Of a DNA stretch of 64,000 bases, positions 15,001 to 21,000 are shown in pieces. The stretch is taken from positions 6,528,001-6,592,000 of the forward strand of contig OZ244207.1 of the NCBI GenBank assembly GCA_965216875.1, in the 5' to 3' direction. The DNA comes from Rubripirellula sp. (lineage in GTDB: Bacteria > Planctomycetota > Planctomycetia > Pirellulales > Pirellulaceae). The position numbers were made by a program. The stretch's first letter is position 1; each line of letters begins with the position of its first letter.

Positions 15001-18000
15001 TGAGCCAGCGGTCAATGCGCAATGCGGATGGCAACCTCCGACCGGTCATCTTGAGCGAGCAAGGTTTTCACTCGCACGGCTACGAAGCCGACGCGTTGGC
15101 CGACCAAGCCGGTTCGCTCGCCTACACGATGAAGCGGATCGCCAAAATGCCGTGGATCGAAACGTTCCACTACCACCGCTGGATTGATCATCCCGACGAG
15201 GGTGGATTGTTGGTTGGCCTGCGTACCCTGCCAACGCCAGAGCATCGATTTGGCAAACCCAAGCAAGCCTGGCACGTCTACCGCGCGATCGGCACAGCTG
15301 ACGAAGACAAAGCAACCAAAGGGCTGCCCTCGCCGTAACGAGTTGCGACCCCGATGGGTTTTAGAACTTTGCCGCTCCATGCATTTCGGCCAATTCTTCG
15401 GCCGTCATCTTGGCGACCTCGCGGTCATAGGTCAGCAGGCCGTTGACTTCGCCTTCGACATCGGTCGTCTGTGTGTAGACGCCGCCTGCAACGCCGCGTC
15501 GTCGCAGGTCCATCAGCGTTTCGAACGATTTCTTGTAGCGCGACGTGTACTCTTGCTTGGTTTGAGGAAGCCCGCCGTAGCCCCAGTTGCGCATTTCGAT
15601 GTTCCATTGGTGACCTTTGACGACCAACCCGTGACCGCCGAATTCGCCGACCACTTTCACATAATCATTCAGTCGGCGGTCTTCGAATGGAAACATCGGC
15701 TCGGGATAGTTGTGTCGGTCTGCCACGTCGCCGACCGGAAAGAAGTTTCCGCCGCTGGCGATGTTGACTAACCGCGTGATGTCGAGGTTCTCCATCGTTT
15801 GGCCGATCCGTACCGTTTCGTGTTGTCCCCAGCGTTCGTTGAAAGGGACCCACATGACGATTGATGGGTTGTTTCGCAAATTGCTGACCATGGCTTTCAG
15901 TTCGGCCATGAATTGATCGTGTTGGTCTTTGGGCCAAACATCTTCCACGGGGTTGGGGGCGAGTTTGCTCCAGAAAGGTCGTCCCCCTGTGCTGGGCATG
16001 TCCTGCCAAACGAGCATTCCTACACGATCACAGTAGCTATAGAAACGTCGCGGTTCGATCTTGATGTGTTTACGGATCATGTTGAATCCGGATCGTTTCA
16101 GATAGTCGACGTCGAACCGCATCGCTTCGTCACTGGGTGGCGTTAGCAACCCATCAGGCCACCAGCCTTGATCGAGTGGCCCATAGTGAAAGATGACGTT
16201 GCCATTGAGCGTCATGCGAACGTGACCAGCGGGCCCGCGTTTGACCCCCACTTCTCGCATCGCGGCGTACGATTCCACTCGATCAATCACGCGTCCATCA
16301 CCACCAAGAAGTTCAATCGTGATGTCGTAAAGGTGGGGCGTGTCGGGAGTCCAGTGTTTTGCATTCGGAATCCGAACACTTAGCGAAGCGTCAGCCATAC
16401 CGACAACCCGATCGCCGTCACGAACGGTAATCCGCAACTCTTCGCCGTCGACAGGATCACCACCGAGTGTTGGCAAGACACGCAAGGTTCCTTCGCCCAA
16501 TCGCGGCTTCATCTTGACACTCTTGATGCGACGATCCGGAATCTGTTCGAGCCAAACCGTCTGCCAGATTCCCGAGACACGTGTGTAATAAATGCCACGT
16601 GGCTTGAGCGTTTGTTTGCCGAGTGTTTGAAGGGGCGCCGTTTTGTCGATGACGCGAACGACAAGCTCGTTGTCACCTTGTTCCACGGCGTCGGTGATGT
16701 CGAAGGAAAACGGATCGCTGCTGCCAACGTGTTTGCCGACACTCTTGCCATTGACGAAGACTTCGCAGTCGTAGTCGACCGCTTCAAAGTTCAATCGCGT
16801 GCGATGTCCGGGCCGTGGCTTGTGCGAAAAACTGCGTCGATACCAAAGCACTTCCTTCGGATCGAGCAAATGGCCTACGCCACTTAGCGCTGACTCGATC
16901 GCGTACGGTACCAAGATCTTGCCGTCGAAAGTTTTTGGCGCAGCCTTGTTGGCTTCGCTAGTAACCTTGTAATCCCAAAGCCCGTTGAGGTTCGTCCATG
17001 ACTCGCGAACAAACTGCGGTCGCGGGTATTCCTGCCAAGCGTTCTCGGGTGTGACCTCTTTTCCCCAACGGGTCAGCATGGTGTTCTCGACCGGCGACCA
17101 TTGGGCAAAGCCAGGAGCGCAAACGAGCAAGAAGGCGGCGATGAAAAGGTGACGAACCATAGCCAAGGTGTCCGGCGTAGAATGGAAGGAAGCGCTGCGA
17201 GGTGACAGTCTATTTGATCCGCTCGGTGAATGAGAGGAAGGAACCACGGATAGCACGGATGATTGCCGAGTGAGCGGCTTTGGCGTGAGGCCTCGGGCCC
17301 TGACCGCGCGCAGGTAGCGTGCAATGCCCGGCCGCTTACGCGATCACGGCTCAATTGAGTGGACTTGGGACGAACCACGGATAAAACGAATCACACGAAT
17401 GTTGGAAACGGGGATAGGAGCGGCATGAACCGAAGGGACGACGACATCACCGCGCCACTGCTTGATCGCTTGCGCAAACTTGAGTGTCCGACCTCGTTTG
17501 CAGATGTGATTGGTGCGATGGAGGCGACCGATGCCATTTCTCCGATGCGCTCGTTCGAACGACTGGAGGAGGCACTGGAGCGTTTCCCAAGATTCATCGG
17601 CGAGTGTGTCCCACGGATTTGGCACTGGGCCGTCGAGGCGTCTTCGGAACTACCGGCCATCCCTTTGCTAGACGAGACAGGCGTCGTGACGTTGACGCAG
17701 CGCGAGTGTTTGATCGTCTTGTCGAACGCTTTTCTTTGTACCTATGCCGGCCGAGTGAGCGACGATTGTCTCAGCGGTGATCGTTTGCCGTCGATCAACT
17801 TCGACGAGCTTTACGGCGGTCATGGTTGGGGGAATGTCGAAGTTGAAAAGCTCATGATGTTGCTTTCGTACTTTGAACAGATGTGCCAGCGCGACGAAGC
17901 TGGTGACGCGCTGGATCGACGAATAGGATTCCATCGGCGACGTGCATCGGAATCGTCTACCGAGAATTGGGGCCAGTGCGAGCAATTGCTGAGACCCGTG

Positions 18001-21000
18001 AGCGTTGCCGAGCTTGGTGAATCGCTTGATGACGCCAAGTCGATGTATCGCGTCGATTTCGCGAATCGCATCATCGGTGGAGCGGCGATCGCGTTTGGCA
18101 ACGTGCAAGAAGAAATCATGTTCTGTGAATGCCCAGAAATGATCGTCGCACGATTGTTCTGCCCGGCGATGCGAGACGATGAAGCCATCGTGATCGTAGG
18201 CGCCGAACAATTCACTCAGCATTCAGGCTACGCCGGTTCATTGCGCTACGAAGGGCGTTATCGCGATCAATCCGAAATTTCTGACGGACAGCTTCAGTCT
18301 TACGTTGTCGCGCTCGATGCGCTCGATTTGCGAGGCCGAAATCCACAGAGCCAATACGACTCGTCACTTATCCAGCGGGATCTAACCAAAGCCTGGGCAG
18401 GTTTCGACGAACCGGGCACGCCAGAAGTGGTCGCGACAGGCAACTGGGGATGTGGCGTTTTCGGTGGCGATGCAGAGCTGAAGACTTTGATTCAATGGCT
18501 CGCGTGTAGTCGCGTCGGAAAAGCGATGGCCTACTTTCCGTATGATCATCGTGGCTTGGCTAAACGTCTCGGCCCACTTGCAAACGCACTGATCGAGCAA
18601 AGGGTGACGGTTGGCCAGTTGGCAAGGTTTCTGTTCCAAACGCTCGAGCCAAATGACGTCTTTGATCAAGTCGCCAGAGAATTTGGTATGCAGAATCTTA
18701 ATGGTTGATCTAGCTCTAAATGTCACGCACTGTTTCAACAGAAACTACCCTCCCACTTGTGGGAGGGTCGGGCGCTAAAGCCCGGGGAGGGCCGTTTGAG
18801 GTGCCCCTCACCGGGCCTGAGAGCCCGACTCTCCCAAGGGAGAGTGCCAGTCGGATTCATGGCATTTTGAGCATGACCTACGCGTTTTCGATGAGTGTCA
18901 GGTTGTCTCGGTGGACGACGCTCTCGTAGGGTCGATGACCGAGGATGTCGGCGATCTTGTCACTTGGTTGTCCCAGGATCCGCTCGACTTCCGATGAAGG
19001 GTAGTTGCACAGACCACGGGCGAACTCCTGGCCGCTGGGTCCGCGAAGTGAAACCACACTGCCCTGTTGGAATTGGCCTTCGACGTTGGTGATGCCGATG
19101 GCTAACAGGCTTGAACCCTTTTCGCAGACCGCTTTGGTGGCACCGGCGTCGAGTGTCAAGTTGCCAGCGACTCTTGCGGCACTGCCGATCCAGCGGCGGC
19201 GACCACGAATTGATTTTTCGGGCGCAAGAAAGAGTGTGCCGACATCTTGGCAATCAAAAACTTTGTCGAGGACTTGGTCATCATGTCCCGGCGCGATGAT
19301 CGTCGGATGTCCATGTGAGGTCGCCACGCGGGCTGCCTCCAGTTTGCTTGCCATTCCCCCTTTGCTCATCCCTGACTTTTTGTCGATCGCCAGCGCGGTG
19401 ATGGAATCGTCAATCGATTCGACCAGAGGGATTCGTTTGCTTTGCGGTAATTCGGGTGATCCGTCGTACAACCCGTCAACATCGGAGAGGATGATCAACA
19501 ACGCTCCGCCAAGAAGCCCTGCGACTTGAGCGGCCAGGCGATCGTTGTCGCCAAAGGTGGTCATCAATTCTGAGACGGCGACGGAATCGTTTTCGTTGAC
19601 GATCGCTATTGAGTTGTAGGCGTGGATTTGCGTCAACGCGTTGCGAACGTTCAGGTAGCCGCTGCGTCGCCTCAGGTCTGAAGCGGTCAACAAGACTTGC
19701 GCGGCGTGTCGGCTATGTTTGGCAAAGGCCGTTTCGTAGGCTTGGATCAGATCGGTCTGGCCGACGGCCGCAACCGCTTGCAGTTGGGCGAGTCCCCCCG
19801 GGCGTCGATTGAGTCCTAGTTTGCCCATGCCGGCACCAACAGCACCGCTGCTGACCATCACCGTTTGCCGCCCCGAGTCGGCGATCCGACAAAGTTGGGC
19901 GGCCAGCAAGTCGACGCGCGCGCGATCAAGTTTGCCTTCCGGAGTGGTCAGGACACGCGTGCCCACTTTGACGACGACGCTTTGGGCGTTGTCGATCACC
20001 AAGCGGCGGGGATCGTCACTGGAGGGGGCAGACGCGTTCATTTCGATGCTGGCGCGCTCGATTCGAGGTGGTTTACAAAAAAGTTTTTTCAATCTTTTGC
20101 GGCACGATTGCGTTGTCGAGCCGATCAGATTGTCATGGGGAATCGACGAACCTGGAAGGCCATCGTAAATTCAGATACAAGAGAGCAACGCCTGCTCAAA
20201 CGAGTTCGCCCCACTTTGGCGAGGTCGCAAAACCGTCAGTCACGGCTTTCTAGCCTAATTCCCGTGTTTCGGGCAACGTCCTGGAACGACAAAAAGCCGT
20301 CACTCATCGTTTTGCGACTGCACCAAGTACTGCCCCAACCGGCGCAGCAACGACCCCCGAAAATGAATCACTCGTTATGAGCGAAATACATCACGAATGT
20401 GGTGTCGCCGCGATCTACCATCTCTCAGGTCGCGGCCGAAGTCCTATGTGTACCGAGGATGGTCCGCGACAAATCTCGCGGTTGCTTCCCCGCATGCTGC
20501 TGGACATCCAAAACCGCGGACAACTCGCTGCGGGGATGACGACCTACGACCCGGACCGCCCCACCCTGTTGCGCACACGCAAGGACGTTGGCACGGTGAC
20601 CGAAGTCTTTCGGCTCAACCATCGCGCCAAAGCCGAAAACTTGATGCGGCACCTCGCCGGTCGTGCTGCGATCGGACATGTGCGCTATGCAACCTGCGGC
20701 CAAGATGATCGCAGCTACGCACAACCGTTCGAACGCGAACACATTCACAAACGCAAGTGGTTTAGCTTCTGTTTTAACGGCCAGCTTTCCAACTACAGTT
20801 TGTTGAAAGAACGGTTGTTGGCTGATGGCGATCATCACCTTTCGCTCGACACAGATACCGAAATCATCATGCATGAGATCGGTCGTGTGCTTAGCAAAGC
20901 GCCGCGTCGAATGGATTGGATCGAAGTTCTCAAGCAAACCTGCGCCAACTTTGACGGCGCCTACAGCCTTGCCGTGTTGACCGCCGAAGGCGAAATGGTC

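What a model noticed while it worked through the whole genome (the two positions that open the first line are those of the whole stretch)
17425..18708. Compact bacterial clade of eukaryote-type (canonical) PARG beside two PARP genes
g04964 (427 aa) carries both halves of the canonical PARG catalytic domain (PARG_cat_N + PARG_cat_C), 35% identical to animal PARG over 334 residues with a G-G-A...Q-E-E signature, not the short bacterial-type PARG; about 40 similar proteins of about 415 aa exist in metagenomes and MAGs. Boldest reading: with two PARP1-like genes, macrodomain neighbours and an ARH this bacterium runs a full writer/eraser poly-ADP-ribose cycle of the eukaryotic kind, and this minimal PARG clade is the donor lineage or an old transfer of the eukaryotic enzyme. 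New: canonical PARG is treated as eukaryotic in surveys.
Evidence so far: pfam.tsv; relatives.tsv: PARG_cat_N in 19 of 189,784 bacterial species genomes, 1 of 4,992 Planctomycetota. Swiss-Prot: PARG_DROME 35.2%/341 aa, PARG_BOVIN 35.6%/334 aa. 175 proteins at E<=1e-40 among 8000 scored; the first ~40 (40-61% id, 411-476 aa; few named, Myxococcota and Riflebacteria MAGs) precede animal PARGs at 32-37%. The gene lies in the single contig between bacterial genes. Perina 2014 (PMC4245714, passages, call 146) lists canonical PARG for eukaryotes and bacterial-type PARG for bacteria.
(Added by a program. Inside this text positions count along the whole contig: contig position 6,528,001 is position 1 of the stretch shown here. 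"Call 12" and the like, gene names such as g00115 and contig names such as C1 are that model's own, and its searches are not shown. The text may have been shortened before it was handed on; [...] marks where a part breaks off. The agent that wrote the report below was given it as the finding of a first reader that could run no searches.)

Follow-up and report, generated by a model that had tools for sequence, protein, structure and literature searches.

The report
Eukaryote-type PARG in a planctomycete
A planctomycete chromosome carries an intact gene for the eukaryote-type enzyme that breaks down poly(ADP-ribose), most likely picked up by gene transfer from protists rather than being the ancestor of the eukaryotic enzyme.

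Summary
Window 17425-18708 (+) encodes a 427-aa protein with both Pfam halves of canonical PARG. The predicted fold matches mouse and human PARG (TM 0.86), not bacterial-type PARG (TM 0.31-0.33). The gene lies between bacterial genes on a one-contig 8.26 Mb genome, and a contig from another study also joins it to its neighbour.

The picture is wider than reported. A second clade of more than 100 protein clusters exists in Myxococcota. One group holding both bacterial clades apart from eukaryotes is rejected (AU p 0.0002).

The window's clade (A) sits in a well-supported group with Naegleria, Willaertia, euglenid and dinoflagellate PARGs and shares their motif variants. The gene was not found in two same-genus genomes or in 400 other Planctomycetota.

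Transfer from protists followed by spread among bacteria is the best reading. The "donor lineage" reading is not supported, but the root is unresolved, so it is not excluded.

Canonical PARG co-occurs with PARP (10 of 25 genomes; 3 of 6 against 2 of 395 in Myxococcota). Activity is untested. This is a new member of a known family, of moderate interest.

The parts
17425..18708 (+). Coding sequence of a 427-aa canonical-type PARG (P0001)
   Evidence: ORF, translation, Pfam PF20811 + PF05028, AF2 model with pLDDT 92.9, Foldseek TM 0.86 to mouse and human PARG
17416..17420 (+). Shine-Dalgarno-like AGGAG, 4 nt before the ATG
   Evidence: Read from the sequence
17590..17901 (+). PARG_cat_N, the helical accessory domain (residues 56-159)
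   Evidence: Pfam 2.5e-16, 60.4 bits against a cut-off of 25.6
17962..18558 (+). PARG_cat_C, the macro-fold catalytic domain (residues 180-378)
   Evidence: Pfam 1.1e-64, 218 bits
18064..18114 (+). Catalytic loop: N214, G218-G219-A220, seven residues, Q228-E229-E230
   Evidence: E229/E230 align with the mouse QEE glutamates, which PDB titles name as E748/E749
18454..18462 (+). Diphosphate-loop G344-V345-F346 inside GNWGCGVFGGD
   Evidence: Invariant in alignment A1. Fits the G[A,V][F,Y] motif quoted from Rack 2020 (passages)
17270..17369 (.). Dispersed intergenic repeat just upstream of the gene
   Evidence: At least 40 copies in the own genome. Short-read contigs break here, and a sister strain has a 269-nt replacement
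18709..18872 (.). Dispersed palindromic repeat just downstream of the gene
   Evidence: At least 40 copies in the own genome and many in the congener G002. Contigs break here

Best explanation
The gene encodes an intact, probably active, minimal canonical PARG: accessory domain plus PARG macrodomain and nothing else. It is a resident chromosomal gene of a planctomycete. Its lineage (clade A, about 50 known proteins scattered over Planctomycetota, Verrucomicrobiota, Riflebacteria and Myxococcota) most likely began as a capture of a protist PARG of the Heterolobosea/euglenid type and then moved between bacteria. This species gained it after splitting from its sequenced congeners. In the cell it most likely removes poly(ADP-ribose) made by the genome's two H-Y-E WGR-PARPs, by the usual Glu-Glu mechanism, alongside a bacterial-type PARG, Macro and ARH hydrolases. 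Shown: gene, family, predicted fold, motif conservation, chromosomal residence, rarity, tree position, co-occurrence with PARP. Inferred: enzymatic activity, substrate, direction of transfer.
For: Family and fold:
- Pfam finds both halves.
- The best solved relatives are animal PARGs, at 1e-52 to 1e-57.
- The AF2 model has pLDDT 92.9. Its TM-score is 0.86 to mouse and human PARG over about 435 columns, against 0.31-0.33 to DrPARG and TcPARG.

Active site:
- N214, QEE 228-230, Y269 and GVF 344-346 are invariant in 31 clade members.

Real bacterial gene:
- The genome is one 8.26 Mb contig, 99% complete.
- The flanking genes are GH2, DUF5722, proB and purF.
- Codon use lies within the window's range.
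- An 8.3-kb contig from another study joins GH2 and PARG at about 98.5% identity, with no indels. Of 24 listed differences in the coding sequence, 14 are synonymous and 10 are not.

Acquired gene:
- No full-length match was found in the 60 relatives searched, including the two same-genus genomes, which are 84% and 97% complete.
- The locus sits at a rearranged junction.
- A full-length match occurs in 1 of 401 sampled Planctomycetota and at 25 loci among 185,579 species genomes.

Tree:
- Clade A (SH-aLRT 90) joins an unnamed group o17, then euglenids and a dinoflagellate (99), then Naegleria and Willaertia (97).
- FastTree on 371 rows and an LG+F+G4 tree agree.
- Clade A shares the GGA and [FY]-G-x-VQEEI[MTE]F signature with Naegleria and Willaertia.
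- Clades A and B as one group apart from 24 named eukaryotes is rejected (AU p 0.00018).

Link to PARP:
- Both PARPs have WGR; PARP-A also has the regulatory domain. Both keep H-Y-E.
- PARP occurs in 10 of 25 PARG-bearing genomes.
- In 401 Myxococcota, 3 of 6 PARG-positive genomes have PARP against 2 of 395 PARG-negative ones.
- The other Planctomycetia MAG with a clade-A PARG has the same PARP-Macro operon, with a PARP 63% identical.
Against: - The third glycine of the GGG-x6-8-QEE signature is alanine. Perina 2014 (passages) calls such variants of uncertain function, although that remark concerns bacterial-type PARGs of eukaryotes.
- PARG is 1.9 Mb and about 2 Mb (the shorter way round, if the chromosome is circular) from the two PARP genes, and no ADP-ribosylation gene neighbours PARG in the 15 MAG loci examined.
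- 15 of 25 PARG-bearing MAGs show no PARP. MAGs are incomplete, so some of these may be misses.
- The genome already has a bacterial-type PARG, so the need for a second one is unexplained.
- Direction of transfer: clade A (+o17) is one side of a branch, so a root on its stem would make it sister to all the other sequences.
- Outgroup rooting cannot reject that root (AU 0.36-0.48), and the maximum-likelihood root fell inside clade B.
- The origin of group o17, clade A's sister, is unknown. One member lies on a 107-kb metagenome contig. Other metagenome relatives have intron-like breaks.
- The euglenid sequences come from transcriptomes.
- The tree search was 'quick' and the AU searches were '--fast'.
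Confidence: 0.6

Rival explanations
1. Donor reading: a bacterial lineage (clade A, or the Myxococcota clade B) is where canonical PARG arose, and the eukaryotic stem obtained it from such bacteria. The other bacterial clade would then be a later transfer back from eukaryotes.
For: With seven bacterial-type PARGs as outgroup, the maximum-likelihood root falls inside clade B. Roots on the B stem, the A stem and the A+o17 stem are not rejected (AU 0.28-0.48). Clade B is diverse, with more than 100 clusters at 44-95% identity. It shows conserved synteny within Myxococcota subgroups: SecA-PARG in L017 and L019, and kinase..PARG..Mdh in L011, L016 and L020. Papers propose myxobacterial origins for other eukaryotic traits (search listing and abstracts only).
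Against: The outgroup branch is 4.6 substitutions per site on 254 columns, so it has no discriminating power. Prevalence is tiny: 6 of 401 Myxococcota, 1 of 401 Planctomycetota, and no locus with an archaeal record title among the 25. By contrast the gene is found in all eukaryotic supergroups (Perina 2014, passages). Clades A and B cannot both lie outside eukaryotes. A root on A would make euglenids, then Heterolobosea, the first eukaryotic branches. Clade A's topology does not follow bacterial phyla.
Confidence: 0.12
2. The enzyme is active but does not serve the cell's own PARPs. It degrades foreign PAR or ADP-ribose conjugates, for example from algal or protist hosts or prey, or reverses ADP-ribosylating toxins.
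For: PARG is unlinked to the PARPs. 15 of 25 PARG-bearing genomes show no PARP. Perina 2014 raises such roles for PARP-less bacteria (passages). A close strain occurs in a run labelled algae metagenome.
Against: By eye, I saw no N-terminal signal-like hydrophobic stretch in the sequence; no predictor was run. There is strong co-occurrence with PARP. The PARP-Macro operon is shared with the other PARG-bearing Planctomycetia MAG.
Confidence: 0.2
3. The protein binds ADP-ribose or PAR but is catalytically weak or dead because of the GGA substitution.
For: Gly-to-Ala at the third signature position.
Against: GGA is conserved in 25 of 27 clade-A rows and also occurs in Naegleria and Willaertia PARGs. 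QEE, Asn214, Tyr269 and GVF are all kept. The strain comparison shows mostly synonymous change and none of the changes fall in the motifs.
Confidence: 0.08
4. Artefact: eukaryotic contamination or a chimeric assembly.
For: Most other bacterial carriers are MAGs.
Against: The genome is a single 8.26 Mb contig. An independent contig bridges GH2 and PARG. The gene has no introns, has an SD box and uses host-like codons. MAG loci carry SecA, YidC and BamD next to PARG, on contigs of up to 791 kb.
Confidence: 0.01

Closest known systems
Canonical eukaryotic PARG catalytic domain (human 4B1H, mouse 4FC2, Drosophila 8ADJ)
   Same: Accessory helical domain plus PARG macrodomain. TM-score 0.86. Keeps the Asn before the signature, the QEE glutamates, the Tyr that aligns 39 residues after the second Glu, and the G[AV][FY] diphosphate loop.
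   Different: Only 28-30% identical in the structural alignment. No N-terminal regulatory region. GGA instead of GGG. Tyr373 stands where I place human Phe902; that mapping uses a recalled position for the GAF phenylalanine. Encoded in a bacterium.
Heterolobosean and euglenid PARGs (Naegleria gruberi, Willaertia magna; Ploeotia vitrea and Entosiphon sulcatum transcripts)
   Same: Nearest named eukaryotic relatives in the tree. Identity is 43-48% for Ploeotia. Naegleria and Willaertia share the GGA and [FY]-G-x-VQEEI motif variant.
   Different: They are longer, 455-774 aa, with N- or C-terminal extensions. The euglenids have GGG.
Bacterial-type (microbial) PARG, DUF2263 / PF10021 (T. curvata 3SIG, D. 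radiodurans 5ZDC)
   Same: Same signature and presumed Glu-Glu mechanism. One copy is also present in this genome.
   Different: No accessory domain, about 280 aa, TM only 0.31-0.33. P0001 gives no PF10021 match at E<=0.01. Bacterial-type PARG occurs in 10 of the 61 genomes searched, counting G000, against 1 of 61 with a full canonical PARG.
Bacterial PARP/PARG sets such as Herpetosiphon aurantiacus (Slade 2011, as cited in passages)
   Same: WGR-PARP with the H-Y-E triad, plus PARG and Macro hydrolases, in one bacterial genome.
   Different: Those sets use bacterial-type PARG. Here a canonical PARG is added and there are two PARPs; Perina 2014 lists only Microscilla marina with two.
Myxococcota canonical PARG clade B (for example L017, L026)
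   Same: About 410-aa minimal canonical PARG in bacterial chromosomes, often together with PARP.
   Different: About 37-40% identical to P0001. Has GGGVL..G.VQEEIRF, like most eukaryotes. Groups with dinoflagellate and Picozoa PARGs, not with clade A.

Membership tests
Canonical PARG (PF20811 + PF05028) | PARG macro-fold catalytic domain | tested here: met
   PF05028 at 218 bits against a cut-off of 26.3
Canonical PARG (PF20811 + PF05028) | Helical accessory domain preceding the macrodomain | tested here: met
   PF20811 at 60.4 bits against 25.6. The model aligns to mouse and human PARG over about 435 columns, TM 0.86
Canonical PARG (PF20811 + PF05028) | Signature GGG-x6-8-QEE | tested here: inconclusive
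   The protein has GGA-x7-QEE. Spacing and QEE are kept and the third Gly is Ala. The same holds in 25 of 27 clade-A rows and in Naegleria and Willaertia
Canonical PARG (PF20811 + PF05028) | Asn (not Asp) before the signature; Tyr clasp; G[AV][FY] loop (Rack 2020, passages) | tested here: met
   N214, Y269 (39 residues after E230, as Tyr795 is after Glu756) and G344-V345-F346, all invariant in A1
Canonical PARG (PF20811 + PF05028) | Hydrolysis of PAR ribose-ribose bonds | not testable with these tools
   Needs an enzyme assay
Bacterial-type PARG (PF10021 / DUF2263) | Single macrodomain matching PF10021, without the accessory domain | tested here: not met
   No PF10021 match at E<=0.01. TM 0.31-0.33 to DrPARG and TcPARG. 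NCBIfam TIGR02452 hits the genome's other PARG, not P0001
PARP/PARG writer-eraser system | PARP with the H-Y-E triad in the same genome | tested here: met
   Two genes: WGR+REG+CAT and WGR+CAT. The triad is aligned to PARP4
PARP/PARG writer-eraser system | Genomic linkage of writer and eraser | tested here: not met
   PARG is at 6.55 Mb and the PARPs at 4.67 and 0.21 Mb. There are no ADP-ribosylation neighbours in the 15 other loci examined
PARP/PARG writer-eraser system | Co-occurrence across genomes | tested here: met
   10 of 25 genomes. 3 of 6 against 2 of 395 in Myxococcota. The PARP-Macro operon is shared with G061. Related genomes are not independent samples
PARP/PARG writer-eraser system | PAR polymer made and removed in vivo | not testable with these tools
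   No RNA or biochemical data

The most novel reading that the evidence does not exclude
Canonical PARG is of bacterial origin. A Myxococcota-type (clade B) or clade-A-type lineage gave the enzyme to the eukaryotic stem. Today's bacterial carriers, which often also have PARP1/2-like genes, would then be relics of the system from which eukaryotic PAR signalling was built.
Probability: 0.12. Interest if true: 0.85.

Novelty: new member of a known kind. Interest (0 to 1): 0.5.

Why it matters
The reviews I read divide PARGs into a canonical type of eukaryotes and a microbial type (passages). Three literature searches found no paper describing canonical PARG in bacteria. NCBI's prokaryotic naming library has no model that hits this protein.

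At least two bacterial clades exist, together about 150 protein clusters, and they tend to travel with PARP. This gives small, intron-free, roughly 410-430-aa canonical PARGs for structural and inhibitor work.

It also offers a possibly cultivable bacterium with two PARPs and both PARG types, in which bacterial PAR metabolism can be tested genetically.

Finally, it adds a case for the debate on gene flow between protists, Myxococcota and Planctomycetota.

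Tried and rejected
- **AU test with the site-heterogeneous model:** treekit's PMSF AU test did not finish in three calls, and a full IQ-TREE search timed out. I used LG+F+G4 with --fast searches instead.
- **Two uninformative constraints:** 'A apart from named eukaryotes' and 'B apart from named eukaryotes' were not rejected (AU 0.47 and 0.33). 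Each clade is already one side of a branch, so these tests say nothing.
- **Outgroup rooting:** seven PF10021 proteins gave a 4.6-long outgroup branch and rejected no root position.
- **Origin of group o17:**
  - The metagenome scan with P0074 did not return its own contig.
  - The viral scan with P0147 found nothing.
  - The ESM Atlas listed mixed eukaryotic and Myxococcota clusters.
  - Cluster look-ups gave no organism names.
- **Expression:** no RNA holder is listed.
- **Promoter and terminator scan:** 0 sigma-70-like sites; 2 terminator-like sites against 1.4 expected.
- **Mobile-element context:** the flanking repeats are two different genome-wide families, not a composite element.
- **Neighbours:** no conserved ADP-ribosylation neighbours next to PARG in 15 MAG loci.
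- **Earlier scan notes:** nothing on this genome or sequence. The eight shown of 252 'PARG' notes concern other proteins.
- **Contamination or chimera:** rejected.

Full report
**1. The observation**

An open frame runs from 17359 to 18708 on the + strand. The ATG at 17425 is preceded by AGGAG at 17416-17420 and gives 427 residues.

Pfam finds PARG_cat_C (1.1e-64, residues 180-378) and PARG_cat_N (2.5e-16, residues 56-159), and no bacterial-type PARG model. The best solved relatives are animal PARG catalytic domains: 8adj at 1.4e-57, mouse 4fc2 at 5.9e-54, human 4a0d at 1.8e-52 and Tetrahymena at 3.8e-31.

An AlphaFold model built on 31 clade members has pLDDT 92.9 and pTM 0.92.
- It superposes on mouse and human PARG catalytic domains over about 435 columns with TM 0.86.
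- It reaches TM 0.75 on Tetrahymena PARG.
- It reaches only TM 0.31-0.33 on the bacterial-type enzymes of Deinococcus and Thermomonospora.

So the whole protein is a canonical PARG catalytic unit and nothing more.

**2. Active site**

The catalytic loop reads VDFAN-RII-GGA-AIAFGNV-QEE. In alignment A1 (31 sequences) the following are invariant:
- N214;
- G218 and G219;
- Q228, E229 and E230;
- Y269;
- G344 and F346, inside the GNWGCGxFGG block.

E229/E230 align with the QEE glutamates of mouse PARG. PDB titles name these E748/E749.

Rack et al. 2020 (PMC7050489, passages) list four marks of canonical PARGs:
- an Asn before the signature;
- catalytic Glu756;
- Tyr795;
- a G[A,V][F,Y] loop.

Y269 lies 39 residues after E230 without gaps, just as Tyr795 lies after Glu756. 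G344-V345-F346 fits the loop motif.

Tyr373 stands where I place human Phe902, but that mapping uses a recalled position for the GAF phenylalanine.

The one departure is Ala220 for the third Gly. This is the clade norm: 25 of 27 clade-A rows have Ala, one has Ser and one has Gly. It also occurs in the Naegleria and Willaertia PARGs.

**3. A resident bacterial gene**

The genome is a single 8,264,643-base contig, 99.1% complete. The flanking genes are DUF5722, a GH2 glycosidase, glutamate 5-kinase and an amidophosphoribosyltransferase-like gene.

Codon-usage distance (0.046) lies within the window's range (mean 0.052, sd 0.010). GC3 (0.59) is the lowest of 29 ORFs (mean 0.631, sd 0.021).

Contigs of four public runs were laid on 16000-20000.
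- In a run from a different study, one 8,308-nt contig covers the GH2 gene and continues through PARG to 18756.
- It differs at 40 letters and has no indels.
- A 269-nt stretch replaces 17287-17366.

Of 24 listed differences in the coding sequence, 14 are synonymous and 10 are not, and none lies in a motif. The table was truncated, so these counts are partial. Contamination or chimerism is therefore excluded.

Both intergenic flanks carry dispersed repeats of two different families, each with at least 40 genomic copies.

**4. The rest of the toolkit**

- PARP-A (500 aa) has WGR, the PARP regulatory domain and the catalytic domain. A Macro gene follows it, and an ARH gene lies 7 kb away.
- PARP-B (577 aa) has WGR and the catalytic domain.
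- Both keep His, Tyr and Glu of the triad: by eye, and aligned to PARP4.
- There are four Macro and two ARH matches in all.
- All of these are unlinked to the canonical PARG.

**5. Distribution**

Among 60 relatives of the same genus, family and order, none has a full canonical PARG.
- The two same-genus genomes, 84% and 97% complete, have none.
- One relative has a divergent 378-aa PARG-like protein.
- One weak hit is really a bacterial-type PARG.

In the congeners proB-purF is conserved, but GH2 lies elsewhere, so PARG sits at a rearranged junction.

PARP is likewise confined to 4 of 61 genomes, counting G000. Bacterial-type PARG is in 10 of 61.

In an even sample of 401 Planctomycetota only the window's genome has the full domain.

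A pattern scan of 185,579 species genomes returned 25 loci.
- All are MAGs of Planctomycetia, Verrucomicrobiota, Riflebacteria and, above all, Myxococcota.
- None carries an archaeal record title.
- I scanned 23 ORFs from these loci. 19 carry both Pfam halves (three with N-domain scores just under the cut-off) and 4 carry only the C half.
- L012 and L024 were not scanned.
- Their neighbours are ordinary bacterial genes such as SecA, YidC, BamD, CobU and Mdh.

**6. Two bacterial clades**

A search with a Polyangiales ORF found 731 proteins at E<=0.001. More than 100 of the 120 listed are about 410-aa metagenome proteins, 44-95% identical to the query. I call this clade B.

Full canonical PARG occurs in 6 of 401 sampled Myxococcota.

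**7. Tree**

The first tree was a FastTree of 371 sequences. The second was an IQ-TREE 'quick' run with LG+C20+F+G4 PMSF on 115 rows and 426 columns. The 115 rows were chosen by hand from 373 proteins and the locus ORFs. Both trees agree.

*Clade A*
- Clade A has 26 rows (SH-aLRT 90).
- It is sister to an unnamed metagenome group, o17 (95).
- Together they sit in a 48-row clade (99) with Entosiphon, two Ploeotia transcripts and a cluster that holds a Gymnodinium transcript.
- Naegleria and Willaertia come next (97).

*Clade B*
- Clade B (99) sits in a 38-row clade (99) with Symbiodinium, Effrenium, Picozoa and MMETSP sequences.
- Amoebozoa and opisthokonts lie further out.

*A third bacterial sequence*
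- One Verrucomicrobiaceae sequence is a long branch near the fungi and opisthokonts.

Motifs echo the tree. The group holding clade A shares GG[AG][AS]xx[FY]G.VQEEI[MTE]F. Clade B and the other eukaryotes have GGGVLxxG.VQEEIRF.

An AU test (LG+F+G4, fast searches) rejects clades A and B as one group apart from 24 named eukaryotes (delta lnL 154, p 0.00018). At least two inter-domain transfers are therefore needed whatever the root.

**8. Direction of transfer**

Each bacterial clade is one side of a branch, so direction depends on the root.

With seven bacterial-type PARGs as outgroup (254 columns, outgroup branch 4.6) the maximum-likelihood root fell inside clade B. AU could not reject roots on the B stem (0.28), the A stem (0.48), the A+o17 stem (0.36) or between the two large groups (0.35). 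The root is unresolved.

I favour transfer from eukaryotes to bacteria, for four reasons:
- Canonical PARG is reported from all eukaryotic supergroups (Perina 2014, passages), but from about 0.01% of prokaryotic species genomes here.
- Clade A is scattered over four phyla without following their phylogeny.
- The gene was not found in the two same-genus genomes.
- A root on clade A would make euglenids, then Heterolobosea, the earliest eukaryotic branches.

Some metagenome relatives of o17 are AT-rich and their PARG frame is broken by 30-40-nt gaps with frame changes, which look like introns. At least part of that neighbourhood is therefore eukaryotic. The origin of o17 itself remains open.

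**9. Function**

PARP is found in 10 of the 25 PARG-bearing genomes.

In the same 401 Myxococcota, 3 of 6 genomes with canonical PARG have PARP, against 2 of 395 without it. Related genomes are not independent samples.

The other Planctomycetia MAG with a clade-A PARG (48% identical) carries a PARP 63% identical to PARP-A, with the same downstream Macro gene.

I therefore infer a PAR eraser working with the PARPs. Activity, substrate and expression are untested; no RNA run is listed.

**10. Literature and novelty**

I read passages of these papers:
- Perina 2014 (PMC4245714);
- Rack 2020 (PMC7050489);
- Cho 2019 (PMC6445106);
- the 2021 review PMC8120803.

They assign canonical PARG to eukaryotes and DUF2263 to microbes, and describe bacterial PARPs as sporadic transfers.

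Searches found no paper on canonical PARG in bacteria. NCBIfam has no model for the protein. Some sources already label such proteins 'poly(ADP-ribose) glycohydrolase'.

The finding is a new member of a known family in an unexpected host range. It is not a new kind of system.

Noticed in passing
G000:C1:4459600-4460049 (L040): The same genome also encodes a bacterial-type PARG (PF10021, 2e-46; TIGR02452). Both PARG types therefore coexist with two PARPs.
   Followed up: partly
L029 (G018), L080-L083; also 8 Myxococcota genomes: A family of about 325-380-aa proteins matches only positions ~113-203 of PARG_cat_C (the GNWGCGAYGG loop). In the one sequence read (L029), FAQDEVQ seems, by eye, to stand where QEE would be. 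It looks like a third, divergent PARG-like family in Planctomycetota and Myxococcota.
   Followed up: no
window 17270-17369 and 18709-18872: Two different dispersed intergenic repeat families, each with at least 40 copies in the genome, flank the PARG gene. The downstream one is palindromic and is also abundant in congener G002. The upstream one is bracketed by 25-nt direct repeats (17236-17260 and 17367-17391), and a sister strain has a 269-nt replacement there.
   Followed up: partly
L001:532-2034 (G000:C1:4670116-4671618): Among solved structures, the catalytic domain of PARP-A is most similar to vertebrate PARP4, the vault PARP (6.8e-53). Its WGR-to-catalytic span matches PARP2 (about 1e-30).
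   Followed up: no
L056 and L057 (metagenome contigs): A PARG-like frame has a single in-frame TAG at the same position in two separate contigs. This could be a read-through or recoded codon, or a shared pseudogene.
   Followed up: no
L013 (record titled Enterobacterales MAG) and L014 (Proteobacteria MAG): Both carry clade-B PARGs. The genome of L013 (G070) was drawn in the sample of the phylum of the Polyangiales genome G074, so its record label looks wrong.
   Followed up: no
L009:1333-1950: In one clade-A locus a DUF3293 gene starts at the end of the PARG frame, which suggests possible translational coupling. This was not seen in the other loci examined.
   Followed up: no
P0122, P0333, P0360: Fused forms exist among relatives: a 1500-aa protein with PARG at residues 294-635, a TPMT-PARG fusion within clade B's hit list, and an EF-hand-PARG protein in the protist group next to clade B.
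   Followed up: no
G074:C9:236076-236630 and G766:C110:62244-62738: Two Myxococcota genomes carry a second, more divergent full-length PARG_cat_C copy (128-137 bits) besides the clade-B gene.
   Followed up: no
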